Shown here: positions 1-14,468 of the stretch, one piece after another
Layout of the letters: each line of letters opens with the position of its first letter
Numbering within the stretch: the first letter of the stretch is position 1
UHGV virus genome: UHGV-0284478
Reading direction: 5' to 3' (one strand)
From: a virus
Length of the DNA stretch: 14,468 nucleotides
Made by a program: the position numbers and the translations under genes
The notes under the pieces: model-generated
The model's database searches: none
What the model was told of the DNA's origin: nothing
The model's input: only the letters and a program-made list of their open reading frames with translations

Positions 1-1
1 C

Positions 2-820
2 GACACGCTGCAGAACACGCAGCTGCAGAGCGCCATTGTGAAGGCGATGTATGCCGCCACCATTGAGAGTGAGCTGGATACGCAGTCAGCGATGGATTTT
101 ATTCTGGGCGCGAACAGTCAGGAGCAGCGGGAAAGGCTGACGGGCTGGATTGGTGAAATTGCCGCGTATTACGCCGCAGCACCGGTCCGTCTGGGAGGCG
201 CAAAAGTGCCGCACCTGATGCCGGGGGACTCACTGAACCTGCAGACGGCTCAGGACACGGATAACGGCTACTCCGTGTTTGAGCAGTCACTGTTGCGGTA
301 TATCGCTGCCGGGCTGGGTGTCTCGTATGAGCAGCTTTCCCGGAATTACGCCCAGATGAGCTACTCCACGGCACGGGCCAGCGCGAACGAGTCGTGGGCG
401 CACTTTATGGGGCGGCGAAAATTCGTCGCATCCCGTCAGGCGAGCCAGATGTTTCTGTGCTGGCTGGAAGAGGCCATCGTTCGCCGCGTGGTGACGTTAC
501 CTTCAAAAGCGCGCTTCAGTTTTCAGGAAGCCCGCAGTGCCTGGGGGAACTGCGACTGGATAGGCTCCGGTCGTATGGCCATCGATGGTCTGAAAGAAGT
601 ACAGGAAGCGGTGATGCTGATAGAAGCCGGACTGAGCACCTACGAGAAAGAGTGCGCAAAACGCGGCGACGACTATCAGGAAATTTTTGCCCAGCAGGTC
701 CGTGAAACGATGGAGCGCCGCGCAGCCGGTCTTAAACCGCCCGCCTGGGCGGCAGCGACATTTGAATCCGGACTGCGACAATCAACAGAGGAGGAGAAGA
801 GTGACAGCAGAGCTGCGTAA
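2..820 (+). CDS. B: Portal protein, C-terminal part (5' end lies upstream of the window; reading phase starts at base 2)
   Basis: Open frame runs from the window edge to the stop at 818-820; translation (…MYAATIESELDTQSAMDFILGANSQEQRERLTGWIGEIAAYY…) is recognisable as the C-terminus of lambda portal protein gpB; lies immediately upstream of the C/Nu3 homologue as in lambda. Confidence 0.9.
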   Translation, partial: DTLQNTQLQSAIVKAMYAATIESELDTQSAMDFILGANSQEQRERLTGWIGEIAAYYAAAPVRLGGAKVPHLMPGDSLNLQTAQDTDNGYSVFEQSLLRYIAAGLGVSYEQLSRNYAQMSYSTARASANESWAHFMGRRKFVASRQASQMFLCWLEEAIVRRVVTLPSKARFSFQEARSAWGNCDWIGSGRMAIDGLKEVQEAVMLIEAGLSTYEKECAKRGDDYQEIFAQQVRETMERRAAGLKPPAWAAATFESGLRQSTEEEKSDSRAA

Positions 821-2120
821 TCTCCCGCATATTGCCAGTATGGCCTTTAATGAGCCGCTGATGCTTGAACCCGCCTATGCGCGGGTTTTCTTTTGTGCGC
901 TTGCAGGCCAGCTTGGGATCAGCCGCCTGACGGATGCAGTATCCGGCGACAGCCTGACTGCCGGAGAGGCACCCGCGGCGCTGGCGTTATCCGTTGATGA
1001 TGACGGACCACGACAGGCCCGCAGTTATCAGGTCATGAACGGCATCGCCGTGCTGCCGGTGTCCGGCACGCTGGTCAGTCGGACGCGAGCGCTGCAGCCG
1101 TATTCGGGGATGACCGGTTACAACGGCATTATCGCCCGTCTGCAACAGGCTGCCAGCGACCCGATGGTGGACGGCATTCTGCTCGATATGGATACGCCAG
1201 GCGGGATGGTGGCAGGGGCATTTGACTGCGCTGACATCATCGCCCGTGTGCGTGACATAAAGCCGGTATGGGCGCTGGCCAACGACATGAACTGCAGTGC
1301 AGGTCAGTTGCTTGCCAGTGCCGCCTCCCGGCGTCTGGTCACGCAGACCGCCCGGACAGGCTCCATCGGCGTCATGATGGCTCACAGTAATTACGGTGCT
1401 GCGCTGGAGAAACAGGGTGTGGAAATCACGCTGATTTACAGCGGCAGCCATAAGGTGGATGGCAACCCCTACAGCCATCTTCCGGATGACGTCCGGGAGA
1501 CACTGCAGTCCCGGATGGACGCAACCCGCCGGATGTTTGCACAGAAGGTGTCGGCATATACCGGCCTGTCCGTGCAGGCTGTGCTGGATACCGAGGCTGC
1601 AGTGTACAGCGGTCAGGAGGCCATTGATGCCGGACTGGCTGATGAACTTGTTAACAGTACCGATGCGATCACCGTCATGCGTGATGCACTGGATGCACGT
1701 AAATCCCGTCTCTCAGGAGGGCGAATGACCAAAGAGACTCAATCAACAACTGTTTCAGCCACTGCTTCGCAGGCTGACGTTACTGAGGTGGTGCAAGCGA
1801 CGGAGGGCGAGAACGCCAGCGCGGCGCAGCCGGACGTGAACGCGCAGATCACCGCAGCGGTTGCGGCAGAAAACAGTCGCATTATGGGGATCCTCAACTG
1901 TGAGGAGGCTCACGGACGCGAAGAGCAGGCACGCGTGCTGGCCGAAACCCCCGGTATGACCGTGGAAACGGCCCGCCGCATTCTGGCAGCTGCACCACAG
2001 AGTGCACAGGCGCGCAGTGACACTGCGCTGGATCGTCTGATGCAGGGGGCACCGGCACCGCTGGCTGCAGGTAACCCGGCATCTGATGCCGTTAACGATT
2101 TGCTGAACACACCAGTGTAA
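801..2120 (+). CDS. C: Prohead protease / capsid assembly protein C (ClpP/SppA-like serine protease family), GTG start
   Basis: GTG at 801 preceded by a strong Shine-Dalgarno GAGGAGGAG (789-797); translation from 801 (TAELRNLPHIASMAFNEPLMLEPAYARVFF…) matches lambda gpC N-terminus; length 439 aa equals lambda gpC; overlaps the end of B by 20 nt. The ORF-track start at 687 is an in-frame upstream Met inside B and is not used. Confidence 0.88.
   Translation: MTAELRNLPHIASMAFNEPLMLEPAYARVFFCALAGQLGISRLTDAVSGDSLTAGEAPAALALSVDDDGPRQARSYQVMNGIAVLPVSGTLVSRTRALQPYSGMTGYNGIIARLQQAASDPMVDGILLDMDTPGGMVAGAFDCADIIARVRDIKPVWALANDMNCSAGQLLASAASRRLVTQTARTGSIGVMMAHSNYGAALEKQGVEITLIYSGSHKVDGNPYSHLPDDVRETLQSRMDATRRMFAQKVSAYTGLSVQAVLDTEAAVYSGQEAIDAGLADELVNSTDAITVMRDALDARKSRLSGGRMTKETQSTTVSATASQADVTEVVQATEGENASAAQPDVNAQITAAVAAENSRIMGILNCEEAHGREEQARVLAETPGMTVETARRILAAAPQSAQARSDTALDRLMQGAPAPLAAGNPASDAVNDLLNTPV
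1515..2120 (+). CDS. nu3: Scaffolding protein Nu3, translated from an internal in-frame start within C (shares C-terminus and stop with C)
   Basis: In-frame ATG at 1515 (MDATRRMFAQKVSAYTGLS…), 714 nt downstream of the C start, which is the same offset I recall for lambda Nu3 within C; nested in-frame arrangement is established for lambda. Confidence 0.7.
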   Translation: MDATRRMFAQKVSAYTGLSVQAVLDTEAAVYSGQEAIDAGLADELVNSTDAITVMRDALDARKSRLSGGRMTKETQSTTVSATASQADVTEVVQATEGENASAAQPDVNAQITAAVAAENSRIMGILNCEEAHGREEQARVLAETPGMTVETARRILAAAPQSAQARSDTALDRLMQGAPAPLAAGNPASDAVNDLLNTPV

Positions 2121-2129
2121 GGGATGTTT

Positions 2130-2462
2130 ATGACGAGCAAAGAAACCTTTACCCATTACCAGCCGCTGGGCAACAGTGACCCGGCACATACGGCAACCGC
2201 GCCCGGCGGATTGAGTGCGAAAGCGCCTGCAATGACCCCGCTGATGCTGGACACCTCCACCCGTAAGCTGGTTGTGTGGGATGGCACCACCGACGGTGCT
2301 GCCGTTGGCATTCTGGCGGTTGCTGCTGACCAGACCAGCACCACGCTGACGTTCTACAAGTCCGGCACGTTCCGTTATGAGGATGTGCTCTGGCCGGAGG
2401 CTGCCAGCGACGAGACGAAAAAACGGACCGCGTTTGCCGGAACGGCAATCAGCATCGTTTAA
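2130..2462 (+). CDS. D: Head decoration protein D
   Basis: Translation [43 protein letters not shown]… is recognisable as lambda gpD; 110 aa as in lambda; second ATG (2130) chosen over 2124 because the homologue starts MTSKETF; GGGA 7-10 nt upstream. Confidence 0.92.
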
Positions 2463-2482
2463 CCTTACCCTTCATCACTAAA

Positions 2483-2504
2483 GGCCGCCTGTGCGGCTTT
2501 TTTT
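2483..2504 (+). terminator. Intergenic stem-loop plus T7 run between D and E (partial or attenuating intrinsic terminator)
   Basis: GCCGC (2484-2488) pairs with GCGGC (2493-2497) around a CTGT loop, followed directly by TTTTTTT (2498-2504); a second T-run (2511-2517) precedes the E start codon. Confidence 0.5.
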
Positions 2505-2517
2505 ACGGGATTTTTTT

Positions 2518-3543
2518 ATGTCGATGTACACAACCGCCCAGCTGCTGGCGGCAAATGAGAAGAAATTTAAGTTTGATCCGCTGTTTCTGCGTCTCTTTTT
2601 CCGTGAGAGCTATCCCTTCACCACGGAGAAAGTCTATCTCTCACAAATTCCGGGACTGGTAAACATGGCGCTGTACGTTTCGCCGATTGTTTCCGGTGAG
2701 GTTATCCGCTCCCGTGGCGGCTCCACCTCTGAATTTACACCGGGATATGTCAAGCCGAAGCATGAGGTGAATCCGCAGATGACCCTGCGTCGCCTGCCGG
2801 ATGAAGATCCACAGAATCTGGCGGACCCGGCTTACCGCCGCCGTCGCATCATTCTGCAGAACATGCGAGACGAAGAGCTGGCCATTGCTCAGGTCGAAGA
2901 GATGCAGGCCGTTTCTGCCGTGCTTAAGGGCAAATATACCATGACCGGTGAAGCCTTCGATCCGGTTGAGGTGGATATGGGCCGCAGTGAGGCGAATAAC
3001 ATCACGCAGTCCGGCGGCACGGAGTGGAGCAAGCGTGACAAGTCCACGTATGATCCGACCGACGATATCGAAGCCTACGCGCTGAACGCCAGCGGAGTGG
3101 TGAATATCATCGTGTTTGATCCGAAAGGCTGGGCGCTGTTCCGTTCCTTCAAAGCCGTCAGGGAGAAGCTGGATACTCGTCGCGGCTCTCATTCCGAGCT
3201 GGAGACAGCGGTGAAAGACCTGGGCAAAGCGGTGTCCTACAAGGGGATGTATGGCGATGTGGCCATCGTCGTGTATTCCGGACAGTACGTGGAAAACGGC
3301 GTCAAAAAGAACTTCCTGCCGGACAACACGATGGTGCTGGGGAACACTCAGGCACGCGGTCTGCGCACCTATGGCTGCATTCAGGATGCGGACGCACAGC
3401 GCGAAGGCATTAACTCCTCTGCCCGTTACCCGAAAAACTGGGTGACCACCGGCGATCCGGCGCGTGAGTTCACCATGATTCAGTCAGCACCGCTGATGCT
3501 GCTGGCTGACCCTGATGAGTTCGTGTCCGTACAACTGGCGTAA
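2518..3543 (+). CDS. E: Major capsid protein E (HK97-fold major head protein)
   Basis: Translation from ATG 2518 (MSMYTTAQLLAANEKKFKFDPLFLRLFFRESYPFTTEKVYLSQIPGLVNMALYVSP…) is recognisable as lambda gpE; 341 aa as in lambda. The ORF-track start at 2491 adds 9 non-homologous residues and overlaps the upstream hairpin, so it is rejected. Confidence 0.93.
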   Translation: MSMYTTAQLLAANEKKFKFDPLFLRLFFRESYPFTTEKVYLSQIPGLVNMALYVSPIVSGEVIRSRGGSTSEFTPGYVKPKHEVNPQMTLRRLPDEDPQNLADPAYRRRRIILQNMRDEELAIAQVEEMQAVSAVLKGKYTMTGEAFDPVEVDMGRSEANNITQSGGTEWSKRDKSTYDPTDDIEAYALNASGVVNIIVFDPKGWALFRSFKAVREKLDTRRGSHSELETAVKDLGKAVSYKGMYGDVAIVVYSGQYVENGVKKNFLPDNTMVLGNTQARGLRTYGCIQDADAQREGINSSARYPKNWVTTGDPAREFTMIQSAPLMLLADPDEFVSVQLA

Positions 3544-3546
3544 TCG

Positions 3547-3570
3547 TGGCCCTTCGGGGCCATTTTCTCT
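3547..3570 (+). terminator. Intergenic GC stem with TTCG tetraloop followed by a T-rich tract, between E and FI
   Basis: TGGCCC (3547-3552) / TTCG loop / GGGCCA (3557-3562), followed by TTTTCTCT (3563-3570); sits 5 nt after the E stop. Confidence 0.4.
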
Positions 3571-3584
3571 ATGTGGAGGAGTCC

Positions 3585-3980
3585 ATGACGAAAGGTGAAC
3601 TGATTGTCCGTCTCCGGTCGCTGGGTGAGCAACTGAACCGTGATGTCAGCCTGACGGGGACGAAAGAAGAACTGGCGCTCCGTGTGGCAGAGCTGGAAGA
3701 GGAGCTTGATGACACGGATGACGCTGCCGGTCAGGATACCCCTCTCAGACCGGAAAATGCGCTGACCGGACATGAAAATGAGGTGGTATCAGCGCAGCCG
3801 GATACCATGATTGATACGGCTGCTCTGGTCACGGTCGTGGCACTGGTGACGCTGCATACTGATGCACTTCACGCCACGCGGGATGAACCTGTGGCATTTG
3901 TGCTGCCGGGAACGGCGTTTCGTGTCTCTGCCGGTGTGGCAGCCGAAATGACAGAACGTGGCCTGGCCAGAATGCAATAA
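3585..3980 (+). CDS. FI: DNA-packaging / head assembly protein FI
   Basis: Translation from ATG 3585 (MTKGELIVRLRSLGEQLNRDVSLTGTKEELALRVAELEEELDD…) is recognisable as lambda gpFI; GGAGGAG Shine-Dalgarno at 3574-3580. Confidence 0.88.
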   Translation: MTKGELIVRLRSLGEQLNRDVSLTGTKEELALRVAELEEELDDTDDAAGQDTPLRPENALTGHENEVVSAQPDTMIDTAALVTVVALVTLHTDALHATRDEPVAFVLPGTAFRVSAGVAAEMTERGLARMQ

Positions 3981-3991
3981 CGGGAGGCGCT

Positions 3992-4345
3992 GTGGCTGAT
4001 TTCGATAACCTGTTCGATGCTGCCATTGCCCGCGCCGATGAAACGATACGCGGGTACATGGGAACGTCAGCCACCATGACATCCGGTGAGCAGTCCGGCG
4101 CAGTAATACGTGGTGTTTTTGATGACCCTGAAAATATCAGCTATGCCGGACAGGGCGTACGCGTTGAAGGCTCCAGCCCGTCCCTGTTTGTCCGGACTGA
4201 TGATGTGCGGCAGCTGCGGCGCGGCGACACGCTGACCATCGGTGAGGAAAACTTCTGGATAGACCGGATTTCGCCGGATGATGGTGGAAGCTGTCATCTC
4301 TGGCTTGGGCGGGGCGTACCGCCTGCCGTTAACCGTCGCCGCTGA
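3992..4345 (+). CDS. FII: Head-tail connector (head completion) protein FII, GTG start
   Basis: 117-aa translation MADFDNLFDAAIARADETIRGYMGTSAT… is recognisable as lambda gpFII (same length); GGGAGG upstream at 3982-3987. Confidence 0.9.
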   Translation: MADFDNLFDAAIARADETIRGYMGTSATMTSGEQSGAVIRGVFDDPENISYAGQGVRVEGSSPSLFVRTDDVRQLRRGDTLTIGEENFWIDRISPDDGGSCHLWLGRGVPPAVNRRR

Positions 4346-4356
4346 AAGGGGGATGT

Positions 4357-4935
4357 ATGGCCATAAAAGGTCTTGAGCAGGCCGTTGAAAACCTCAGCCG
4401 TATCAGCAAAACGGCGGTGCCTGGTGCCGCCGCAATGGCCATTAACCGCGTTGCTTCATCCGCGATATCGCAGTCGGCGTCACAGGTTGCCCGTGAGACA
4501 AAGGTACGCCGGAAACTGGTAAAGGAAAGGGCCAGGCTGAAAAGGGCCACGGTCAAAAATCCGCAGGCCAGAATCAGGGTTAACCGGGGGGATTTGCCCG
4601 TAATAAAGCTGGGTAACGCGCGGATTGTCCTGTCCCGACGCAGGCGTCGTAAAAAGGGGCAGCGTTCAGCCCTGAAAGGTGGCGGCAGCGTGCTTGTGGT
4701 GGGAAACCGTCGTATTCCCGGCGCGTTTATTCAGCAACTGAAAAATGGCCGGTGGCATGTCATGCAGCGTGTGGCCGGGAAAAACCGTTACCCCATTGAT
4801 GTGGTGAAAATCCCGATGGCGGTGCCGCTTACCACGGCGTTTAAACAGAATATTGAACGGATACGGCGTGAACGTCTTCCGAAAGAGCTGGGCTATGCGC
4901 TGCAGCATCAACTGAGAATGGTAATAAAGCGATGA
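4357..4935 (+). CDS. Z: Tail completion / minor tail protein Z
   Basis: 192-aa translation MAIKGLEQAVENLSRISKTAVPGAAAMAINRV… is recognisable as lambda gpZ (same length); AAAGGGGG Shine-Dalgarno; follows FII. Confidence 0.9.
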   Translation: MAIKGLEQAVENLSRISKTAVPGAAAMAINRVASSAISQSASQVARETKVRRKLVKERARLKRATVKNPQARIRVNRGDLPVIKLGNARIVLSRRRRRKKGQRSALKGGGSVLVVGNRRIPGAFIQQLKNGRWHVMQRVAGKNRYPIDVVKIPMAVPLTTAFKQNIERIRRERLPKELGYALQHQLRMVIKR

Positions 4936-5327
4936 AACATACTGAACTCCGTGCAGCCGTACTGGATGCACTGGAGAAGCATGACACCGGGGCGACGCTT
5001 TTTGATGGTCGCCCCGCTGTTTTTGATGAGGCGGATTTTCCGGCAATTGCCGTTTATCTCATCGGCGCTGAATACACGGGCGAAGAGCTGGACAGTGATA
5101 CCTGGCAGGCGGAGCTGCATATTGAAGTTTTCCTGCCTGCTCAGGTGCCGGATTCAGAGCTGGATTCGTGGATGGAGTCCCGGATTTATCCGGTGATGAG
5201 CGATGTCCCGGCACTGTCAGATTTGATCACCAGTATGGTGGCCAGTGGCTATGACTACCGGCGCGACGATGATGCGGGCCTGTGGAGTTCAGCCGATCTG
5301 ACTTATGTCATTACCTATGAAATGTGA
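4932..5327 (+). CDS. U: Tail terminator (tail tube terminator) protein U
   Basis: 131-aa translation [45 protein letters not shown]… is recognisable as lambda gpU; ATGA start/stop overlap with Z. Confidence 0.9.
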
Positions 5328-5334
5328 GGACGAT

Positions 5335-6075
5335 ATGCCTGTACCAAATCCAGTAATGCCGGTGAAAGGGGCCGGGACCACACTGTGGGTTTATAAGGGG
5401 AGCGGTGACCCTTATGCGAACCCGCTTTCAGACGTTGACTGGTCGCGTCTGGCAAAAGTTAAAGACCTGACGCCCGGCGAACTGACCGCTGAGTCCTATG
5501 ACGACAGCTATCTCGATGATGAAGATGCAGACTGGACTGCGACCGGGCAGGGGCAGAAATCTGCCGGAGATACCAGCTTCACGCTGGCTTGGATGCCCGG
5601 AGAGCAGGGGCAGCAGGCGCTGCTGGCGTGGTTTAATGAAGGTGATACCCGTGCCTATAAAATCCGCTTCCCGAACGGCACGGTCGATGTGTTCCGTGGC
5701 TGGGTCAGCAGTATCGGTAAGGCGGTGACGGCGAAGGAAGTGATTACCCGCACGGTGAAGGTCACCAATGTGGGACGTCCGTCGATGGCAGAAGATCGCA
5801 GCACGGTGACGGCGGCCACCGGCATGACGGTAACGCCAGCCAGTGCTTCCGTAGTGAAAGGGCAGAGCACCACGCTGACCGTGGCCTTCCAGCCGGAAGG
5901 GGCAACCGACAAGAGCTTCCGTGCGGTGTCTTCGGATAAAACAAAAGCCACCGTGTCGGTCAGTGGTATGACCATCACCGTGAACGGCGTTGCTGCAGGC
6001 AAGGTCAACATTCCGGTTGTATCTGGTAATGGTGAGTTTGCTGCGGTTGCAGAAATCACCGTCACCGCCAGTTAA
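5335..6075 (+). CDS. V: Major tail tube protein V with C-terminal bacterial Ig-like (Big_2-type) domain
   Basis: Translation from ATG 5335 ([42 protein letters not shown]…) is recognisable as lambda gpV; 246 aa as in lambda; GAGGA Shine-Dalgarno at 5326-5330. The ORF-track start at 5305 lies inside U and is rejected. Confidence 0.92.
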
Positions 6076-6090
6076 TCCGGAGAGTCAGCG

Positions 6091-6513
6091 ATGTTCCTGA
6101 AAACAGAATCATTTGAACATAACGGTGTGACCGTCACGCTTTCTGAACTGTCAGCCCTGCAGCGTATTGAGCATCTCGCCCTGATGAAACGGCAGGCAGA
6201 ACAGGCGGAGTCAGACAGCAACCGGAAGTTTACTGTGGAAGACGCCATCAGAACCGGCGCGTTTCTGGTGGCGATGTCCCTGTGGCATAACCATCCGCAG
6301 AAGACAAAGCTGCCTTCCATGAATGAAGCCGTTAAACAGATTGAGCAGGAAGTGCTTACCACCTGGCCCACAGAGGCAATTTCTCATGCTGAAAACGTGG
6401 TGTACCGGCTGTCCGGTATGTATGAGTTTGTGGTGAATGATGCCCCTGAACAGGCAGAGGACGCCGGGTCTGCAGAGCCTGTTTCTGCGGGAAAGTGTTC
6501 GACGGTGAGCTGA
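6091..6513 (+). CDS. G: Tail assembly chaperone G (zero-frame product)
   Basis: 140-aa translation MFLKTESFEHNGVTVTLSELSALQRIEHLALMKRQAEQ… is recognisable as lambda gpG; same length. Confidence 0.9.
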   Translation: MFLKTESFEHNGVTVTLSELSALQRIEHLALMKRQAEQAESDSNRKFTVEDAIRTGAFLVAMSLWHNHPQKTKLPSMNEAVKQIEQEVLTTWPTEAISHAENVVYRLSGMYEFVVNDAPEQAEDAGSAEPVSAGKCSTVS

Positions 6514-6929
6514 GTTTTGCCCTGAAACTGGCGCGTGAGATGGGGCGACCTGACTGGCGCGCCATGCTTGCCGGGATGTCATCCACAGAGTATGCCGACT
6601 GGCACCGCTTTTACAGTACCCATTATTTTCATGATGTTCTGCTGGATATGCACTTTTCCGGGCTGACGTACACCGTGCTCAGCCTGTTTTTCAGCGATCC
6701 GGAGATGCATCCGCTGGATTTCAGTCTGCTGAACCGGCGCGAGGCTGACGAAGAGCCTGAAGATGATGTGCTGATGCAGAAAGCGGCAGGGCTTGCCGGA
6801 GGCGTTCGTTTTGGCCTGGACGGGAATGAAGTTATCCCCGCTTCCCCGGATGTGGCGGACATGACGGAGGATGACGTAATGCTGATGACAGTATCAGAAG
6901 GGATCGCAGGAGGAGTCCGGTATGGCTGA
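6091..6929 (+). CDS. T: Tail assembly chaperone G-T fusion, made by programmed -1 ribosomal frameshift at 6489-6495 (G frame 6091-6495, then T frame 6495-6929)
   Basis: The -1 frame is open from 6495 to the stop at 6927-6929 with no plausible independent start or ribosome-binding site; the slippery heptamer G_GGA_AAG lies at the junction; the T-frame stop overlaps the H start codon. The G-T frameshift is established for lambda. Confidence 0.8.
6489..6495 (+). promoter_or_regulatory. Slippery heptanucleotide G GGA AAG for the G-T -1 frameshift
   Basis: Read directly: in the G frame GCG-GGA-AAG encodes A-G-K (6487-6495); the same heptamer is the lambda G-T frameshift site. Confidence 0.8.
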
Positions 6930-9495
6930 ACCGGTAGGCGATCTGGTCGTTGATTTAAGTCTGGATGCGGCCAGATTTGACGAGCAGATGGCCAGAGTCA
7001 GGCGTCATTTTTCCGGTACGGAAAGTGATGCGAAAAAAACAGCGGCAGTCGTTGAACAGTCGATGAACCGGCAGGCGCTGGCTGCACAGAAAGCGGGAAT
7101 TTCCGTCGGGCAGTATAAAGCCGCCATGCGTATGCTGCCTGCGCAGTTCACTGACGTGGCCACGCAGCTTGCAGGCGGGCAAAGTCCGTGGCTGATCCTG
7201 CTGCAACAGGGGGGGCAGGTGAAGGACTCCTTCGGCGGGATGATCCCCATGTTCAGGGGGCTTGCCGGTGCGATCACCCTGCCGATGGTCGGGGTCACCT
7301 CGCTGGCGGTGGCGACAGGTGCGCTGGTGTACGCCTGGTACCAGGGAGATTCCACGCTTTCAGCGTTTAATAAAACCCTGGTTCTTTCCGGTAATCAGTC
7401 CGGACTGACTGCCGATCGTATGCTGACTCTCTCAAGAGCCGGGCAGGCAGCAGGGCTGACGTTTAACCAGGCGAGAGAGTCACTGGCAGCCCTGGTGAAT
7501 GCCGGTGTGCGTGGTGGTGAACAGTTTGATGCCATCAACCAGAGTGTCGCGCGTTTTGCGTCTGCATCCGGTGTGGAGGTGGATAAAGTCGCTGAAGCCT
7601 TCGGGAAGCTGACCACTGACCCGACGTCGGGACTGATGGCGATGGCGCGCCAGTTCCGTAACGTGACGGCAGAGCAGATTGCGTATGTTGCACAGCTGCA
7701 GCGTTCCGGAGACGAGGCCGGGGCATTGCAGGCGGCGAACGATATCGCCACGAAAGGCTTTGATGAGCAGACCCGTCGCCTGAAAGAAAACATGGGAACA
7801 CTGGAGACCTGGGCGGATAAAACAGGGAAGGCATTCAAATCGATGTGGGATGCCATTCTGGATATCGGTCGTCCTGAATCCTCAGCGGATATGCTCGCCA
7901 GTGCGCAGAAGGCATTTGATGAGGCGGATAAAAAATGGCAGTGGTACCAGAGCCGGAGCCAGCGCCGGGGAAAGACCTCCTCTTTTCGTGCGAACCTTCA
8001 GGGGGCATGGGATGACCGGGAAAATGCCCGTCTGGGTCTGGCAGCGGCCACGCTGCAGTCGGATATGGAAAAAGCCGGTGAACTGGCGGCAAGGGACCGG
8101 GCTGAGCGTGAGGCGTCACAGCTGAAGTATACCGGAGAGGCGCAGAAGGCGTATGAGCGCCTGCAGACGCCGCTGGATAAATATACCGCCCGTCAGAAAG
8201 AGCTGAATAAGGCCCTGAAAGACGGAAAAATCCTGCAGGCGGATTACAACACGCTGATGGCGTCGGCAAAAAAGGATTATGAATCGACGCTGAAAAAGCC
8301 GTCAGGTGTGAAGGTGTCTGCCGGTGAGCGCCAGGAAGACCGGGCGCATGCAGCCATGCTGGCGCTTGAAACCGAGCTCAGGACGCTGGAAAAACACAGC
8401 GGTGTGAATGAGAAAATCAGCCAGCAGCGCCGGGATTTATGGGAAGCGGAAAATCAGTATGTGGTCCTGAAAGAGGCCGCCACGAAACGGCAGTTATCTG
8501 AGCAGGAAAAATCCCTGCTGGCCCATGAGAAAGAAACGCTGGAGTACAAACGCCAGCTTGCTGAGCTGGGCGACAAGATTGAACACCAGAAACGGCTGAA
8601 TGAGCTGGCACAGCAGGCGGCGCGGTTTGAACAGCAGCAGAGCGCGAAGCAGGCGGCAATCAGCGCAAAAGCCCGCGGCCTCACTGACCGTCAGGCGCAG
8701 CGGGAGTCGGAAGAGCAGCGCCTTCGTGAGGTGTACGGTGATAATCCGGCTGCGCTGGCGAAGGCCACATCTGCACTGAAGAACACCTGGTCTGCGGAGG
8801 AGCAGCTTCGTGGAAGCTGGATGGCCGGGATGAAGTCCGGCTGGGGCGAGTGGGCGGAAAGTGCGACGGACAGTTTTTCGCAGGTTAAAAACGCGGCCAC
8901 GCAGACCTTTGACGGTATTGCACAGAATATGGCAGCGATGCTGACCGGCAGCGAACAGAACTGGCGTGGTTTCACCCGTTCTGTGCTGTCCATGCTGACA
9001 GAGATTTTTCTGAAGCAGGCGATGGTGGGGATAGTCGGGAGTATCGGCAGCGCCATTGGCGGGGCTGTTGGTGGCGGCGCATCCGCGTCAGGCGGTACAG
9101 CCATTCAGGCTGCGGCGGCGAACTTCCATTTCGCGACCGGGGGATTTACGGGGACGGGGGGTAAATATGAACCTGCGGGGATTGTTCATCGCGGGGAGTT
9201 TGTCTTCACGAAGGAGGCGACCAGCCGGATTGGTGTCGGCAATCTGTACCGCCTGATGCGGGGCTATGCGGAAGGTGGTTATGTCGGCGGTGCCGGAAGT
9301 CCGGCGCAGATGCGGCGGGCGGAAGGCATTAATTTTAATCAGAACAATCACGTGGTGATTCAGAACGACGGCCCCAACGGGCGGGCAGGGCCGCAGCTGA
9401 TGAAAGCGGTGTATGAGATGGCCCGCAAGGGGGCACAGGATGAACTCCGGCTGCAGTTGCGTGATGGCGGTATGTTATCAGGGAGCGGTGGATGA
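6922..9495 (+). CDS. H: Tail tape measure protein H (857 aa)
   Basis: N-terminus MAEPVGDLVVDLSLDAARFDEQMARVRRHFSGTESDAKKTAAVVEQS… and the Gly-rich hydrophobic C-terminal segment (GIVGSIGSAIGGAVGGGASASGG…) are recognisable as lambda gpH; position between G-T and M; ATGA overlap with M. Confidence 0.92.
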   Translation: MAEPVGDLVVDLSLDAARFDEQMARVRRHFSGTESDAKKTAAVVEQSMNRQALAAQKAGISVGQYKAAMRMLPAQFTDVATQLAGGQSPWLILLQQGGQVKDSFGGMIPMFRGLAGAITLPMVGVTSLAVATGALVYAWYQGDSTLSAFNKTLVLSGNQSGLTADRMLTLSRAGQAAGLTFNQARESLAALVNAGVRGGEQFDAINQSVARFASASGVEVDKVAEAFGKLTTDPTSGLMAMARQFRNVTAEQIAYVAQLQRSGDEAGALQAANDIATKGFDEQTRRLKENMGTLETWADKTGKAFKSMWDAILDIGRPESSADMLASAQKAFDEADKKWQWYQSRSQRRGKTSSFRANLQGAWDDRENARLGLAAATLQSDMEKAGELAARDRAEREASQLKYTGEAQKAYERLQTPLDKYTARQKELNKALKDGKILQADYNTLMASAKKDYESTLKKPSGVKVSAGERQEDRAHAAMLALETELRTLEKHSGVNEKISQQRRDLWEAENQYVVLKEAATKRQLSEQEKSLLAHEKETLEYKRQLAELGDKIEHQKRLNELAQQAARFEQQQSAKQAAISAKARGLTDRQAQRESEEQRLREVYGDNPAALAKATSALKNTWSAEEQLRGSWMAGMKSGWGEWAESATDSFSQVKNAATQTFDGIAQNMAAMLTGSEQNWRGFTRSVLSMLTEIFLKQAMVGIVGSIGSAIGGAVGGGASASGGTAIQAAAANFHFATGGFTGTGGKYEPAGIVHRGEFVFTKEATSRIGVGNLYRLMRGYAEGGYVGGAGSPAQMRRAEGINFNQNNHVVIQNDGPNGRAGPQLMKAVYEMARKGAQDELRLQLRDGGMLSGSGG

Positions 9496-9821
9496 AAACC
9501 TTTCGCTGGAAAGTGAAGCCGGATATGGAGGTGAACTCGCAGCCATCGGTGCGTGAAGTGCGTTTTGGTGACGGGTACTCACAGCGTATGGCGGCAGGGC
9601 TGAATGCTGACCTGAAAACATACAGGGTGACGCTTTCCGTGACCCGGGAGGAGGCCCGGCATCTGGAAGCGTTCCTGGCAGAGCACGGTGGCTGGAAGGC
9701 ATTTTTGTGGAAGCCACCCTATGCATACCGGCAGATAAAGGTGACCTGTGCCGGGTGGTCTGCGCGGGTCGGGATGTTGCGCGTTGAGTTCAGCGCGGAG
9801 TTTAAGCAGGTGGTGAACTGA
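9492..9821 (+). CDS. M: Tail tip protein M
   Basis: 109-aa ORF (same length as lambda gpM) directly after H with ATGA overlap; lambda gene order. Confidence 0.85.
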   Translation: MKTFRWKVKPDMEVNSQPSVREVRFGDGYSQRMAAGLNADLKTYRVTLSVTREEARHLEAFLAEHGGWKAFLWKPPYAYRQIKVTCAGWSARVGMLRVEFSAEFKQVVN

Positions 9822-10519
9822 TGCAGGATATTCGAGAAGAAAGTCTGAACGAGTCGGTTAAGTCAGAGCAGTCACCGCGGGTGGTACTCTGGGAAATCGA
9901 CCTGACGGTACAGGGTGGTGAGCGGTATTTTTTCTGTAATGAGCTGAATGAAAAAGGGGAGCCGGTCACCTGGCAGGGGCGTAAGTATGAGGCATACCCG
10001 ATTGACGGCAGCGGCTTTGAGATGAACGGCCGGGGCAGCAGTGCCAGACCGTCGCTGACGGTGTCCAATCTGTTCGGTCTGGTCACCGGGATGGCGGAAG
10101 ACCTGCAGAGTCTGGTGGGGGCCACGGTGGTCCGCCGCCGGGTGTATGCCCGTTTTCTGGATGCGGTGAATTTCGTTGCGGGCAATCCGGAGGCGGACCC
10201 GGAGCAGGAGCTGAGTGACCGCTGGGTGGTGGAGCAGATGTCGCAGCTGACAGCCATGACGGCCTCGTTTGTGCTGGCTACACCGACCGAGACGGACGGG
10301 GCGCTGTTTCCCGGTCGCATCATGCTGGCGAACACCTGTATGTGGGATTACCGGGGAGATGAATGCGGGTATAACGGTCCTGCGGTGGCGGATGAGTTCG
10401 ACAACCCCACCACGGATATCCGTAAGGACAGATGCAGCAAGTGCATGCGCGGGTGTGAACTGCGCAGGAATGTCGGCAATTTTGGCGGTTTCCTTTCCAT
10501 TAATAAACTTTCGCAGTAA
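9821..10519 (+). CDS. L: Tail tip protein L (C-terminal cysteine cluster)
   Basis: 232-aa ORF (same length as lambda gpL); TGATG overlap with M; C-terminal cysteines (CMWDYRGDECGY … CSKCMRGC) consistent with the Fe-S-binding tail of gpL; lambda gene order. Confidence 0.85.
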   Translation: MQDIREESLNESVKSEQSPRVVLWEIDLTVQGGERYFFCNELNEKGEPVTWQGRKYEAYPIDGSGFEMNGRGSSARPSLTVSNLFGLVTGMAEDLQSLVGATVVRRRVYARFLDAVNFVAGNPEADPEQELSDRWVVEQMSQLTAMTASFVLATPTETDGALFPGRIMLANTCMWDYRGDECGYNGPAVADEFDNPTTDIRKDRCSKCMRGCELRRNVGNFGGFLSINKLSQ

Positions 10520-10529
10520 ATCCCGGTTT

Positions 10530-11273
10530 ATGACACAGACTGAATCAGCGATTCTGGCGCATGCCCGGCGGTGTGCGCCTGCGGAGTCGTGCGGCTTCGT
10601 GATAAGCACGCCGGAGGGGGAGTGGTATATCCCTTGTGTGAATATTTCTGCAGAGCCGGAGGCGTATTTTCGTATCGCACCGGAAGACTGGCTGCGGGCA
10701 GAGATGCAGGGGGAGATTGTGGCACTGGTCCACAGTCATCCCGGTGGGCTGCCCTGGCTGAGCGAGGCTGACCGGCGGCTGCAGATAAAAAGCGCACTGC
10801 CCTGGTGGCTGGTCTGCCGGGGTGACATTCACAAATTCCGCTGCGTGCCGCACCTGACGGGACGGCGCTTTGAGCACGGGGTGACGGACTGTTACACCCT
10901 GTTCCGGGATGCATACCATCTGGCGGGGACTGAAATGCCGGATTTTCATCGCGAGGATGACTGGTGGCGCCACGGTCAGAACCTTTACCTGGACAATATG
11001 GCGGTCACCGGCTTTTACCGGGTGCCCCTGTCCTCTGCACAGGCGGGCGATATTCTGCTGTGCTGCTTTGGTGCTTCGGTACCGAACCATGCCGCCATTT
11101 ACTGCGGCAACGGTGAGCTGCTTCACCATCTGCCTGAACAACTGAGTAAACGGGAGAGGTATTCCGAAAAATGGCAACGACGAACGCATTCTGTCTGGCG
11201 TCACCGCCACTGGCACGCATCTGCCTTCACGGGGATTTGCAACGATTTGGCCGCCGCCTCAGCCTGTATGTGA
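10530..11273 (+). CDS. K: Tail tip assembly protein K (JAB/MPN metallo-isopeptidase motif followed by an NlpC/P60-like region)
   Basis: Translation MTQTESAILAHARRCAPAESCGFVISTPEGEWYIPCVNIS… is recognisable as lambda gpK; contains the JAMM-type motif HSHPGGLPWLSEAD (HxH-x7-S-x2-D) with a Glu about 50 residues upstream; ATG at 10530 is the first in-frame ATG after the L stop. Confidence 0.85.
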   Translation: MTQTESAILAHARRCAPAESCGFVISTPEGEWYIPCVNISAEPEAYFRIAPEDWLRAEMQGEIVALVHSHPGGLPWLSEADRRLQIKSALPWWLVCRGDIHKFRCVPHLTGRRFEHGVTDCYTLFRDAYHLAGTEMPDFHREDDWWRHGQNLYLDNMAVTGFYRVPLSSAQAGDILLCCFGASVPNHAAIYCGNGELLHHLPEQLSKRERYSEKWQRRTHSVWRHRHWHASAFTGICNDLAAASACM

Positions 11274-11851
11274 ACACGGCAGCGGAAGCCATTCGCGCCC
11301 TGTCGATGCAGATGCCGGGCTTTCGCCGTCAGATGAACGAAGGCTGGTACCAGATACGTATTGCCGGTGATGACACGGCACCGGAGGCGGTGTATGCCCG
11401 TCTTCACGAACAGCTGGGTGAGGGAACGGTCATCCACATTGTGCCGCGACTGGCCGGGGCCGGAAAGGGTGGACTGCAGATTGTGCTGGGGGCGGCAGCC
11501 ATCGTGGGCTCTTTCTTCACGGCCGGAGGCTCGATGGCGTTATGGGGTACAGCCCTGAGTGCCGGTGGTTTTTCTGCCACCACGATGCTGTTTTCACTGG
11601 GTGCCAGCATGATACTGGGCGGAGTGGCCCAGATGCTGGCCCCGAAGGCAAAAACACCGGATTACCGCGCAACGGATAACGGCAGACAGAACACGTACTT
11701 TTCCTCGCTGGATAACATGATTGCCCAGGGGAACCCGATGCCGGTGCCTTACGGGGAAATGCTGGTTGGCTCCCGCCGTATATCCCAGGACATCAGCACC
11801 CGTGATGAAGGCGGGGGCGGAAAGGTCGTGGTTATCGGGCGGCAGGGGTAA
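11171..11851 (+). CDS. I: Tail tip assembly protein I
   Basis: 226-aa translation (…ARICLHGDLQRFGRRLSLYVNTAAEAIRAL … GNPMPVPYGEMLVGSRRISQDISTRDEGGGGKVVVIGRQG) is recognisable as lambda gpI; overlaps the 3' end of K by 103 nt in another frame, as in lambda. Confidence 0.88.
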   Translation: MATTNAFCLASPPLARICLHGDLQRFGRRLSLYVNTAAEAIRALSMQMPGFRRQMNEGWYQIRIAGDDTAPEAVYARLHEQLGEGTVIHIVPRLAGAGKGGLQIVLGAAAIVGSFFTAGGSMALWGTALSAGGFSATTMLFSLGASMILGGVAQMLAPKAKTPDYRATDNGRQNTYFSSLDNMIAQGNPMPVPYGEMLVGSRRISQDISTRDEGGGGKVVVIGRQG

Positions 11852-11856
11852 AAAGA

Positions 11857-11896
11857 ATAAAAAAATCCCGCAGTGATCGCGGACAGGAACTGCGGG
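11857..11896 (-). terminator. Intrinsic (rho-independent) terminator on the minus strand, convergent with the end of I
   Basis: Minus-strand RNA would read CCCGCAG-(16-nt loop)-CUGCGGG then A-UUUUUUU-AUUCUUUU; stem arms at 11867-11873 and 11890-11896, U-tract complementary to the A-run at 11856-11866 on the + strand. Confidence 0.5.
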
Positions 11897-11955
11897 AGAG
11901 TTACGAAGATTAAGTGTAAGGAATTATTCTTATATCACGACAAAAAAATTAACGC
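11857..11955 (-). ncRNA. Candidate ~100-nt small RNA (moron-like), from the predicted sigma70 promoter to the minus-strand intrinsic terminator
   Basis: Promoter and terminator are in the correct order and spacing on the minus strand; the interval has no ORF with a ribosome-binding site; it lies in an AT-rich island between I and J. Transcript ends are predictions only. Confidence 0.3.
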
Positions 11956-11961
11956 AGAGAA

Positions 11962-11989
11962 ATTATACGCGCCACAGTCAGTGTGTGAA
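11962..11989 (-). promoter_or_regulatory. Sigma70-type promoter on the minus strand: -35 TTCACA, 16-bp spacer, -10 TATAAT
   Basis: Reverse complement of 11984-11989 is TTCACA (5/6 match to TTGACA); reverse complement of 11962-11967 is TATAAT (6/6); spacer is 16 bp; predicted start near 11953-11955. Confidence 0.4.
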
Positions 11990-12062
11990 AATGTGAAGAT
12001 ATTCAGAATTTTTATGCCATTACCGGTTTTAACCAACAGGATTATCGGTGGGCATGAAAGAA

Positions 12063-12097
12063 AACCCCGGTATCTGCTGATACCGGGGTTTCTCTTT
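12063..12097. terminator. Strong 12-bp hairpin with T-rich tracts on both sides (bidirectional terminator-like element) within the I-J island
   Basis: AACCCCGGTATC (12063-12074) / TGCT loop / GATACCGGGGTT (12079-12090); + strand then reads TCTCTTT; on the minus strand the stem is followed by TTTTCTTTC. Confidence 0.45.
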
Positions 12098-12194
12098 AGC
12101 ATGGCAGAAATGTGTTTCATGCTTTTCGGGCGAAGGATATCCGACTTCTGTACGGAATGGCAAGTGGCGGTTAATTTATTCAGGGGAAGGCTGT

Positions 12195-14353
12195 ATGGGA
12201 AAAGGTGGCGGTAAGGCACACACGCCTCGTGAGGCGAAGGATAATCTCAAATCCACGCAGATGATGAGTGTGATTGATGCGATTGGTGAGGGACCGATAG
12301 AAGGTCCGGTGAAGGGACTGCAGAGTATTCTGGTGAACAAAACCCCGCTGACGGACACGGACGGTAATCCCGTGATACACGGTGTGACCGCGGTCTGGCG
12401 TGCCGGGGAGCAGGAGCAGACACCACCGGAAGGCTTTGAGTCCTCCGGAGCTGAAACCGGACTGGGCGTGGAAGTGACGAAGGCAAAATCGGTGACGCGC
12501 ACCATTACGTCCGCGAACATTGACCGCCTGCGGGTTACCTTCGGGGTGCAGTCACTGGTGGAGACCACCTCAAAGGGTGACCGTAACCCGGCAACCGTCC
12601 GCCTGCTGATTCAGTTACAGCGTAACGGTAACTGGGTGACAGAAAAGGACGTCACCATTAACGGCAAGACCACCTCACAGTTCCTGGCCTCGGTGATTCT
12701 GGATAATCTGCCTCCCCGGCCCTTTAACATCCGGATGGTCAGGGAGACGGCGGACAGCACCACGGACCAGCTGCAGAATAAGACGCTGTGGTCGTCATAC
12801 ACCGAAATCATCGATGTGAAACAGTGCTACCCGAACACGGCCATTGTGGGGCTGCAGGTGGATGCGGAGCAGTTCGGCGGCCAGCAGATGACGGTGAACT
12901 ACCATATCCGCGGTCGTATCATCCAGGTGCCGTCAAACTATGACCCGGAAAAACGCACGTACAGTGGTATCTGGGACGGCAGTCTGAAACCGGCATACAG
13001 CAACAACCCGGCCTGGTGCCTGTGGGACATGCTGACTCACCCGCGCTACGGCATGGGAAAACGTCTGGGGGCGGCGGATGTGGACAAGTGGGCGCTGTAT
13101 GCCATCGGGCAGTACTGCGATCAGACGGTCCCGGATGGTTTCGGGGGGACCGAGCCGCGGATGACCTTTAATGCGTACCTGGCACAACAGCGTAAGGCGT
13201 GGGACGTTCTCAGTGATTTCTGCTCTGCGATGCGCTGTATGCCGGTATGGAACGGTCAGACGCTGACGTTCGTTCAGGACCGCCCGTCGGATGTGGTGTG
13301 GCCGTACACCAACAGCGATGTGGTGGTGGATGATAACGGCGTGGGATTCCGCTACAGCTTCAGTGCCCTGAAGGACCGGCACACGGCGGTGGAGGTGAAT
13401 TACACCGACCCGCAGAACGGCTGGCAGACCTCCACGGAACTGGTGGAAGACCCGGAAGCCATACTGCGCTACGGACGCAACCTGCTGAAGATGGACGCGT
13501 TCGGCTGTACCAGCCGCGGTCAGGCCCACCGTGCCGGACTGTGGGTGATAAAGACCGAACTGCTGGAAACGCAGACGGTGGATTTCACGCTCGGGTCTCA
13601 GGGGCTGCGGCACACACCCGGTGACATCATTGAAATCTGTGATAACGACTATGCCGGGATCCTGACCGGCGGACGTGTCCTGTCCATTGATGCTGCCACC
13701 CGCACCCTGACGCTGGACCGTGAAGTGACACTTCCGGAGACCGGTGCCGCCACGGTGAACCTGATTAACGGCAGCGGTAAGCCAGTGAGTGTGGACATCA
13801 CCGAACACCCCGCGCCGGACCGGATACAGGTCAGTACCCTGCCTGATGGTGTGGAGACATACGGGGTGTGGGGACTCTCCCTGCCGTCACTGCGCCGTCG
13901 CCTGTTCCGCTGTGTCTCCGTCCGGGAAAACACGGACGGCACCTTTGCCATCACGGCGGTGCAGCACGTACCGGAAAAAGAAGCCATCGTGGATAACGGT
14001 GCCCGCTTTGAGCCGCAGTCAGGTTCCCTGAACAGCGTCATCCCACCGGCAGTGCAGCACCTGACGGTGGAGGTGAGCGCAACTGACGGCCAGTATCTGG
14101 CGCAGGCGAAATGGGACACGCCGCGGGTGGTGAAGGGTGTGCGCTTCAGTCTGCGCCTGACCAGTGGTAAGGGAACGGATGCCAGACTGGTGACCACCGC
14201 CATCACCGCAGACACGGAGCACCGTTTCAGCGGCCTGCCGCTCGGGGAATACACCCTGACGGTGCGGGCGATAAACAGCTATGGCCAGCAGGGTGAACCT
14301 GCCACCACCACCTTCCGGATTGCCGCACCGGCAGCACCGTCGCGGATTGAGCT
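12195..14353 (+). CDS. J: Host specificity / central tail fibre protein J, N-terminal ~720 codons; 3' portion absent and replaced by an inverted duplication
   Basis: Translation MGKGGGKAHTPREAKDNLKSTQMMSVIDAIGEGPIEGPV … through …TFRIAAPAAPSRIEL is recognisable as lambda gpJ; the frame stays open to the window end but after ~14353 the sequence is the reverse complement of upstream J sequence, so the apparent C-terminus is not genuine J. Confidence 0.85.
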
Positions 14354-14468
14354 GCCGGTGCGGCAATCCGGAAGGTGGTGGTGGCAGGTTCACCCTGCTG
14401 GCCATAGCTGTTTATCGCCCGCACCGTCAGGGTGTATTCCCCGAGCGGCAGGCCGCTGAAACGGTGCT
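14218..14468. repeat. Perfect inverted repeat: arm 14218-14335 is the reverse complement of arm 14351-14468, with a 15-bp spacer (14336-14350)
   Basis: Checked by hand over the full 118 bp of each arm; the right arm runs into the window edge, so the true arm length is unknown. The minus-strand ORF 14227-14424 encodes the same peptide as J for this reason. Confidence 0.9.

What the first reader, a model, noticed from the sequence alone, without database searches (positions are those of the whole stretch)
14218..14468. J is interrupted by a perfect 118-bp inverted duplication with a 15-bp spacer at the window end
Bases 14351-14468 are the exact reverse complement of 14218-14335. J homology runs through ...AAPAAPSRIEL (to about 14353) and then the sequence folds back on itself. 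The mirrored minus-strand ORF 14227-14424 and the apparent J C-terminus (PVRQSGRWWWQVHPAGH…) are consequences of this. Long perfect palindromes are poorly tolerated in enterobacteria (SbcCD-mediated cleavage), so the most economical explanation is a fold-back or chimeric read at a contig end, meaning the true distal part of J and downstream genes are missing. Less likely alternatives are a genuine inversion or deletion junction leaving a defective prophage.
Basis: seen in the sequence. Interest (0 to 1): 0.55.

Follow-up and report, generated by a model that had tools for sequence, protein, structure and literature searches.

The report
Fold-back artefact ending a prophage contig
The last 114 bases of this window are the preceding piece of a lambda-like phage tail-tip gene (J) copied backwards, most likely a sequencing or assembly fold-back at a contig end and not a feature of the genome.

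Summary
Bases 14351-14468 are the exact reverse complement of 14218-14335, with a 15-nt spacer, and the right arm runs to the last base of the window. The window is an ordinary lambda-like late operon, from the portal C-terminus to J. J (start 12195) differs from the intact 1157-codon J of complete E. coli genomes such as Z1002 by 1 base in 2160, up to base 14354 (codon 720). There the real gene continues GAGCTG|ACGCCGGG, while the window turns back onto its own complement, GAGCTG|CCGGTGCGG. The turn uses a 4-nt microhomology (GCTG 14351-14354 pairing with CAGC 14332-14335). The junction is absent from 5,426 complete E. coli genomes, and from the phage, plasmid, viral, species-representative and metagenome collections. 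A de Bruijn graph simulation shows that a hairpin-loop unitig at k=119 is exactly 14218-14468, so the perfect right arm is not independent evidence. The same simulation shows that this geometry cannot separate an artefact from a real junction. Best reading: a fold-back chimera at a contig end (about 0.8). A genuine in vivo fold-back junction stays possible (about 0.13). Only the reads can decide. Interest is low.

The parts
12195..14354 (+). Genuine 5' part of the lambda-like tail-tip gene J (codons 1-720 of 1157)
   Evidence: 1 mismatch in 2160 nt against gpJ of E. coli Z1002 (L001 1596-3755). Pfam FNIII-A_GpJ, Phage-tail_3 and Ig_J; PHROG 31 'central tail fiber J'.
14218..14335 (+). Left arm of the inverted repeat; ordinary J coding sequence (end of the Ig_J domain)
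14332..14335 (+). CAGC, upstream partner of the 4-nt junction microhomology
   Evidence: Read from the alignment and the sequence
14336..14350 (+). 15-nt spacer ACCGTCGCGGATTGA; genuine J sequence, not self-complementary; it would be the hairpin loop
14351..14354 (+). GCTG, the last 4 bases shared by real J and by the reverse-complement copy; the inferred snap-back priming site
   Evidence: real J continues ACGCCGGGC, the window continues CCGGTGCGGC; matches to genomes end at 14354 or 14357.
14355..14468 (+). Fold-back segment: reverse complement of 14218-14331, replacing the true distal 1314 nt of J; runs to the window end
14227..14424 (-). Spurious mirrored ORF (65 aa) created by the inverted copy; its weak Ig_J hit is the copied J sequence

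Best explanation
The terminal 114 bases are not part of the genome's gene order. A DNA strand whose 3' end lay at J position 14354 (...GAGCTG-3') folded back. Its last four bases, GCTG, paired with CAGC 16-19 nt upstream, leaving a 15-nt loop, and a polymerase copied the strand's own sequence backwards. This could have happened during end-repair or fill-in in library preparation, during amplification, or as an unsplit template/complement read. The resulting chimeric molecule or read was used by the assembler to extend a contig that was ending in J. In a de Bruijn graph such a molecule forms a loop from an edge to its own reverse complement. The assembler walks the loop, writes k-1 bases of the mirror image and has to stop. 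That gives a flawless arm that ends exactly at the contig end. The truncated 754-aa 'J' and the mirrored minus-strand ORF are by-products. The real prophage most likely has an intact J followed by lom and tail-fibre genes. Shown: the palindrome, the exact breakpoint, the microhomology, the absence of the junction elsewhere, and the graph geometry. Inferred: that the event happened in vitro or in silico and not in the cell.
For: (1) The window up to 14354 is collinear with prophages of complete E. coli genomes (98% of the window covered). Bases 10600-14354 differ from Z1002 by 2 bases in 3755. In those genomes J runs on for another 1314 nt and is followed by lom and a tail-fibre gene. (2) No place in 5,426 complete E. 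coli genomes covers at least 80% of a 121-nt probe across the junction, although 2,272 genomes match its halves separately. The same holds for 50,697 phage records and 72,556 plasmids. A 35-mer and a 21-mer across the junction give no J-related hit in viral, species-representative or metagenome contigs; the single 21-mer hit is a chance match in an unrelated gene. (3) The junction has the anatomy described for fold-back chimeras: inversion onto nearby upstream sequence, primed at a few complementary bases. In MDA, 85% of chimeras were inversions and 76.8% were primed on at least 2 complementary bases, up to 21 (PMC1855051). Chimeric Illumina reads at inverted repeats are described in PMC10908179, and long-read foldbacks in PMC12870357. 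(4) The fold-back adds no new sequence and reaches the last base of the window. In simulation, the hairpin-loop unitig at node-centric k=119 ends exactly at 14468 and, if no real J continuation is in the data, is exactly 14218-14468. (5) Both window ends fall inside genes (portal at base 1, J at the end), and J-like sequence occurs at a median of 2 and up to 17 places per E. coli genome. This is a typical place for short-read contigs to break.
Against: No reads, coverage or assembly graph are available, so the in vitro origin is inferred. The simulation shows that a real fold-back junction would give the same contig end. It also shows that if the real J continuation had been well covered, the graph would branch at 14354 and most assemblers would drop a rare chimeric branch. 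For the contig to run through, the true continuation must have been missing, poorly covered or tangled in a repeat. At k=119 the junction k-mers span 232-251 nt. With 150-nt reads that needs several molecules sharing the junction, which would favour a real junction; a single molecule is enough only with reads of at least about 232-250 nt. The 4-nt microhomology is not special: 9% of 3' ends in J have one within 25 nt. Real J has no notable hairpin at this site. An interrupted palindrome of this size is biologically tolerable. I could not confirm that the window end is a contig end.
Confidence: 0.8

Rival explanations
1. A genuine in vivo fold-back (snap-back) inverted duplication. During replication or break repair a nascent 3' end at 14354 annealed to CAGC on its own or the sister strand and copied backwards. 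This would create a real inverted duplication of the late operon centred on the 15-nt spacer, like the first junction of a tandem inversion duplication or U-turn rearrangement, and would inactivate J. The assembler then stops because the arm collapses onto itself.
For: The contig geometry is identical to what a real junction gives (scenario B). The contig runs through 14354 without switching to the normal J continuation. Junctions at short interrupted inverted repeats are the hallmark of TID/ODIRA and U-turn events (PMC4689423; PMC4417113). Interrupted palindromes with 20-24-bp centres are viable in rec+ sbcCD+ E. coli. Defective prophages are common (general knowledge).
Against: The junction is seen in none of 5,426 complete E. 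coli genomes or any other collection searched, while near-identical prophages have intact J. A circular chromosome needs a second junction, and none is visible. The arm is unbranched for at least 14.3 kb in the contig, so a real duplication would be either very long with a 15-bp centre, causing a chronic SbcCD break and expected to be quickly remodelled (PMC4689423), or short enough that paired reads would normally carry the contig beyond it. By my own estimate, such events are far rarer in assemblies than chimeric reads.
Confidence: 0.13
2. A real but short interrupted palindrome (about 251 bp or slightly more) inside a deleted or rearranged J, with unrelated DNA beyond it. On this reading the contig or window simply stops there for an unrelated reason.
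For: Its size and centre resemble the viable 246-bp interrupted palindrome studied in lacZ. The arm length is only a lower bound, because it is cut by the window end.
Against: It needs a coincidence: the sequence would have to stop exactly while still perfectly mirrored. There is no example in any collection. A repeat shorter than the insert size is normally bridged by paired reads (inference).
Confidence: 0.04
3. A physical hairpin-capped DNA end in the sample, such as a processed double-strand break in an induced or degrading prophage, or a hairpin telomere, read around the turn.
For: Hairpin-capped ends do form in E. coli, but at palindromes and in sbcCD recA mutants (PMC3315005). Reads around a closed hairpin would give this sequence.
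Against: The site has no pre-existing palindrome or stable hairpin. It lies in the coding sequence of a gene that is continuous in relatives. No protelomerase or recombinase is present in the window. A minority molecular species would not normally win the assembly.
Confidence: 0.02
4. A programmed invertible segment or other site-specific switch of tail-fibre specificity (Gin/Cin/Pin-type).
For: Tail-fibre genes of some phages carry invertible segments (general knowledge). The feature lies in a host-range gene.
Against: The 'segment' between the arms is 15 nt. The arms are 118 nt or more of the coding sequence itself, not short crossover sites. No invertase is encoded in the window. Relatives show a continuous J with no inverted copy.
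Confidence: 0.01

Closest known systems
Fold-back (snap-back, inverted-duplicate) chimeric reads and the hairpin-loop contig ends they create in assembly graphs
   Same: The sequence switches to the reverse complement of sequence a few bases upstream. There is a short complementary priming site (4 nt here; 2-21 nt in PMC1855051) and a small unpaired loop. No new sequence is added. The fold-back sits at the end of the sequence, and its arm length fits k-1 for k=119.
   Different: Read support, the feature that actually defines an artefact, could not be examined. The library type and assembler are unknown.
Tandem inversion duplication, ODIRA and U-turn rearrangements (real replication-based fold-backs at short interrupted inverted repeats)
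   Same: The junction architecture is the same: short inverted repeats (CAGC...GCTG) separated by a small spacer become the centre of a long palindrome.
   Different: Those events have a second junction, a copy-number gain, and usually selection for amplification. None of these is visible or testable here. A 4-nt repeat is shorter than the 7-bp repeats counted for ODIRA or the 5-bp-or-more threshold used for U-turns.
The 246-bp interrupted palindrome model in E. coli lacZ (Leach laboratory)
   Same: Almost the same size: about 246 bp in total with a 24-bp centre, against 251 bp with a 15-nt centre. If real, this sequence would be an SbcCD substrate at each replication and would be repaired by RecABCD.
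   Different: That palindrome is engineered and flanked by unique DNA on both sides. Here one side is missing, and the arms may be far longer.
Bacteriophage lambda gpJ (tip attachment / central tail fibre protein)
   Same: The N-terminal 720 residues carry the FNIII-A, Phage-tail_3 and Ig_J domains, differ by 1 residue in 720 from annotated gpJ of E. coli prophages, and follow genes M, L, K and I.
   Different: The C-terminal 437 residues, which in lambda J carry receptor binding (general knowledge), are replaced by 34 nonsense residues read from the antisense copy.

Membership tests
Fold-back chimeric read / assembly hairpin-loop artefact | The sequence continues as the exact reverse complement of immediately preceding sequence | tested here: met
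   14351-14468 is the reverse complement of 14218-14335 at 100%
Fold-back chimeric read / assembly hairpin-loop artefact | Short complementary priming site at the turn | tested here: met
   GCTG (14351-14354) pairs with CAGC (14332-14335). This is weak evidence: 9% of 3' ends in J have such a match within 25 nt.
Fold-back chimeric read / assembly hairpin-loop artefact | Lies at a contig end with no unique sequence beyond, and its arm length is set by k-mer or read length | tested here: inconclusive
   The arm reaches the last base of the window, and the geometry fits a k=119 loop unitig. I could not show that the window end is a contig end, and one free parameter fitted to one number is not a test.
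Fold-back chimeric read / assembly hairpin-loop artefact | The junction is supported by few or duplicate reads, while the true continuation is supported by the bulk | not testable with these tools
   No reads or assembly graph are available
Fold-back chimeric read / assembly hairpin-loop artefact | The junction is absent from independent assemblies of the same element | tested here: met
   0 of 5,426 complete E. coli genomes, and 0 phage, plasmid, viral, species-representative or metagenome records
Real fold-back inverted duplication (TID / ODIRA / U-turn) | Inversion junction at a short interrupted inverted repeat | tested here: met
   CAGC-N15-GCTG
Real fold-back inverted duplication (TID / ODIRA / U-turn) | [quoted passage not shown] | not testable with these tools
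   The window ends inside the arm, and there are no depth data
Lambda gpJ tail tip protein | N-terminal and central J domains, in the gene order M-L-K-I-J | tested here: met
   Pfam and PHROG hits and synteny; 1 mismatch in 2160 nt against annotated gpJ
Lambda gpJ tail tip protein | Complete protein including the C-terminal receptor-binding part | tested here: not met
   The reading frame leaves J after codon 720 of 1157
Site-specific invertible tail-fibre segment (Gin/Cin/Pin/Hin type) | Short crossover sites flanking a gene-sized invertible segment, with an adjacent serine invertase | tested here: not met
   The spacer is 15 nt, the arms are J coding sequence, and no recombinase domain is found in any window ORF. 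Sequence downstream of the window is not available.
Hairpin telomere of a linear prophage (N15-type) | A dedicated palindromic tel site and a protelomerase | tested here: not met
   The arms are J coding sequence that is continuous in relatives. There is no protelomerase in the window.

The most novel reading that the evidence does not exclude
The junction is real. A natural E. coli strain carries a spontaneous snap-back inverted duplication centred in prophage gene J, made by a 4-nt microhomology template switch. That would be an untouched, still perfectly symmetric first-step junction of the kind postulated, but rarely caught, for tandem inversion duplications. It would be maintained despite SbcCD cleavage at every replication.
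Probability: 0.12. Interest if true: 0.4.

Novelty: not a real feature. Interest (0 to 1): 0.08.

Why it matters
The main value is quality control. The 754-aa 'J' protein, the 65-aa minus-strand ORF and any call of a 'truncated J / defective prophage' from this record would be wrong if the end is an artefact. The last 114 bases should be trimmed before annotation or host-range inference. The case also shows that a perfect palindrome at a contig end carries almost no independent information, because the mirrored arm is the same k-mers written twice. If the junction were real, it would be a rare natural snapshot of a symmetric fold-back junction in a bacterial chromosome.

Tried and rejected
(1) I tried to find the source contig or any independent copy of the junction. 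Exact 35-mer and 21-mer scans of viral, species-representative and metagenome contigs found nothing relevant. The one 21-mer hit (L003) is a chance match in an unrelated gene, and it shares only those 21 nt with the window. (2) Exact-protein look-ups of the chimeric 754-aa J and of the tape-measure protein found no record, so the source assembly could not be identified. (3) I tested for a natural hairpin hotspot in real J at the turn. Folding the real sequence gave z = 0.03, nothing special. (4) I rejected a programmed inversion or hairpin telomere: there is no recombinase or protelomerase domain in the window, and J is continuous in relatives. (5) I considered numerology. 251 nt equals a 2x251 MiSeq read and also 2(k-1)+15 for k=119. 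Both fit, the two readings point to different pipelines, and neither can be tested, so I draw no conclusion from them. (6) A literature search for papers describing hairpin contig ends in bacterial short-read assemblies gave only general work on palindromes in bidirected graphs (PMC9528984). (7) An Rfam scan of the window at gathering thresholds gave no hit.

Full report
**Observation.** Bases 14351-14468 are the perfect reverse complement of 14218-14335, with 15 nt (ACCGTCGCGGATTGA) between the arms. No other direct or inverted repeat of at least 24 nt exists in the window. The 251 nt fold as a single hairpin of -183 kcal/mol, against -52.5 +/- 3.5 for shuffles (z = -37). The right arm ends on the last base of the window, so 118 nt is a lower bound. 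The quoted peptides...AAPAAPSRIEL followed by PVRQSGRWWWQVHPAGH...*, and the mirrored ORF 14227-14424 are confirmed.

**Context.** The window is a standard lambda-like late operon on the + strand:
- the portal C-terminus, cut by base 1;
- S49 protease (C), D, E, FI, FII, Z, U and V (with a Big_2 domain);
- G and T, tape measure H, M, L, K (JAB + NlpC/P60), I and J.

J starts at 12195 and carries the FNIII-A_GpJ, Phage-tail_3 and Ig_J domains (PHROG 31). The whole window up to 14354/14357 is collinear with prophages in thousands of complete E. coli genomes.

**Breakpoint.** Against the annotated gpJ of E. coli Z1002 and WP5-S18-ESBL-08 (3474 nt, 1157 codons, followed by a lom-family gene and a tail-fibre gene), window 12195-14354 has 1 mismatch in 2160 nt. 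The 1595 nt upstream also have 1 mismatch. The alignment shows that real J reads ...CGGATTGAGCTG|ACGCCGGGCTATTTTCAG..., while the window reads ...CGGATTGAGCTG|CCGGTGCGGCAATCCGG.... The true gene order therefore ends at 14354, codon 720. The bases GCTG (14351-14354) are shared by the real gene and by the mirrored copy. They are complementary to CAGC at 14332-14335. A strand ending in ...GCTG-3' can therefore fold back over a 15-nt loop and prime on itself. Copying the template backwards from 14331 gives exactly what follows. The 4-nt match is not remarkable in itself: 9% of 3' ends in J have one within 25 nt and 25% within 60 nt. The real sequence has no special hairpin at this site.

**Is the junction seen anywhere else?** No.
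- A 121-nt probe across the junction finds its two halves separately in 2,272 complete E. coli genomes, but no place covering at least 80% of it in any of 5,426 genomes.
- The same holds for phage records and plasmids.
- Exact junction 35-mers and 21-mers are absent from IMG/VR contigs, from one genome per species (GTDB) and from JGI metagenome contigs.
- The one exception is a chance 21-mer inside an unrelated gene that shares nothing else with the window.
- The chimeric 754-aa product is not on record either.

**What the geometry does and does not say.** I simulated a node-centric de Bruijn graph of the locus.
- For any k, the k-mers of the window up to 14335 form one unitig (1-14335).
- A fold-back adds a loop unitig that ends k-1 bases after the spacer.
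- At k=119 that unitig ends exactly at 14468.
- If no normal J continuation is in the data, the loop unitig is exactly 14218-14468, which is 251 nt, or 2(k-1)+15.
- If the normal continuation is present, the loop unitig is 14237-14468 and the graph branches at 14354.

Three consequences follow.
- The flawless right arm is simply the same k-mers written a second time. Only the few bases around the turn are new information.
- The contig end looks the same whether the fold-back molecule was made in the cell or in the tube.
- For the contig to run through 14354, the normal continuation must have been absent, thinly covered or tangled. J-like sequence occurs at a median of 2 and up to 17 places per genome.

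The 251-nt total also equals a 2x251 MiSeq read. A single snap-back insert read end to end would be perfectly symmetric by construction, and because its two mates give the same canonical k-mers it would count twice. I cannot choose between these technical routes.

**Biology of palindromes.** The experimental record is more nuanced. A 246-bp chromosomal palindrome with a 24-bp central asymmetry, and a 480-bp one with a 20-bp centre, are cut by SbcCD at each replication. They are nevertheless repaired, and rec+ cells grow and survive almost normally. A perfect 460-bp palindrome kills even rec+ cells (PMC4245961; PMC4213011; PMC3315005). With its 15-nt asymmetric centre, the present sequence is of the tolerated kind, so biology alone does not exclude it. 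Real fold-back events at short interrupted inverted repeats are documented: TID and ODIRA (PMC4689423) and U-turn inversions (PMC4417113).

**Weighing.** Several points favour an artefact.
- The junction anatomy matches what is described for polymerase fold-back chimeras. In MDA, 85% of chimeras were inversions, mostly onto nearby sequence, and 76.8% were primed on at least 2 complementary bases, up to 21 (PMC1855051). Illumina chimeric reads at inverted repeats are described in PMC10908179, and long-read foldbacks in PMC12870357.
- The fold-back sits at the very end of the sequence and adds nothing new.
- Essentially identical prophages have an intact J.
- The junction is unique to this record.
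- Both window ends fall inside genes of a multi-copy prophage family, where short-read contigs typically break.

Several points keep a real junction possible.
- The contig geometry would be identical.
- The contig runs through the branch point at 14354.
- An interrupted palindrome is viable.

Against a real event:
- a circular chromosome needs a second junction;
- the arm is unbranched for at least 14.3 kb;
- perfectly symmetric junctions are expected to be remodelled quickly.

I put the artefact at about 0.8, a real in vivo fold-back duplication at about 0.13, and other real structures at under 0.1 together. A programmed invertible segment or a hairpin telomere is rejected: the spacer is 15 nt, the arms are coding sequence, and no recombinase or protelomerase is in the window.

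**Consequence.** Bases 14355-14468 should be treated as untrustworthy and trimmed. The 754-aa J and the minus-strand ORF 14227-14424 are not genes. No statement about a defective prophage can be made from this record. The decisive data are the reads and the assembly graph.

Noticed in passing
window 11852-12194: There is a 344-bp AT-rich spacer (GC 0.38-0.45, against about 0.6 around it) between tail genes I and J. It is not annotated as a CDS in RefSeq relatives, and the mechanical ORF 11873-12214 has no Pfam or PHROG hit. It holds a near-consensus minus-strand promoter-like site (11989->11962, TTCACA-16-TATAAT), a minus-strand terminator-like hairpin with a T-run (11883-11867), and a strong hairpin at about 12059-12093. 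It could be a moron or a small antisense RNA of about 70-90 nt. There is no Rfam hit at gathering score.
   Followed up: partly
window 6489-6495: The slippery heptamer GGGAAAG lies at the end of the G-like chaperone ORF (6091-6513), overlapping the T-like ORF (6495-6929). This is the expected lambda G/GT -1 frameshift site.
   Followed up: partly
window 1-820: The window starts inside the portal gene. ORF 38-820 matches only positions 235-354 of the lambda-family portal profile, and genome matches start at base 1. The left end is therefore also an abrupt cut inside a gene.
   Followed up: partly
window 1-14354: The window looks mosaic. The best complete genomes match it at only 94.6% overall (2 pieces), yet 10600-14354 is 99.95% identical to Z1002. 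The head and proximal tail genes therefore come from a different lambdoid lineage than the I-J end.
   Followed up: no
L003 6935-6955 (metagenome contig Ga0315540_10003933): The 21-nt junction probe has one exact match inside an unrelated ORF (...GKAIELPVRQGTHGPP...). This is a chance hit, and no other similarity to the window was found.
   Followed up: yes
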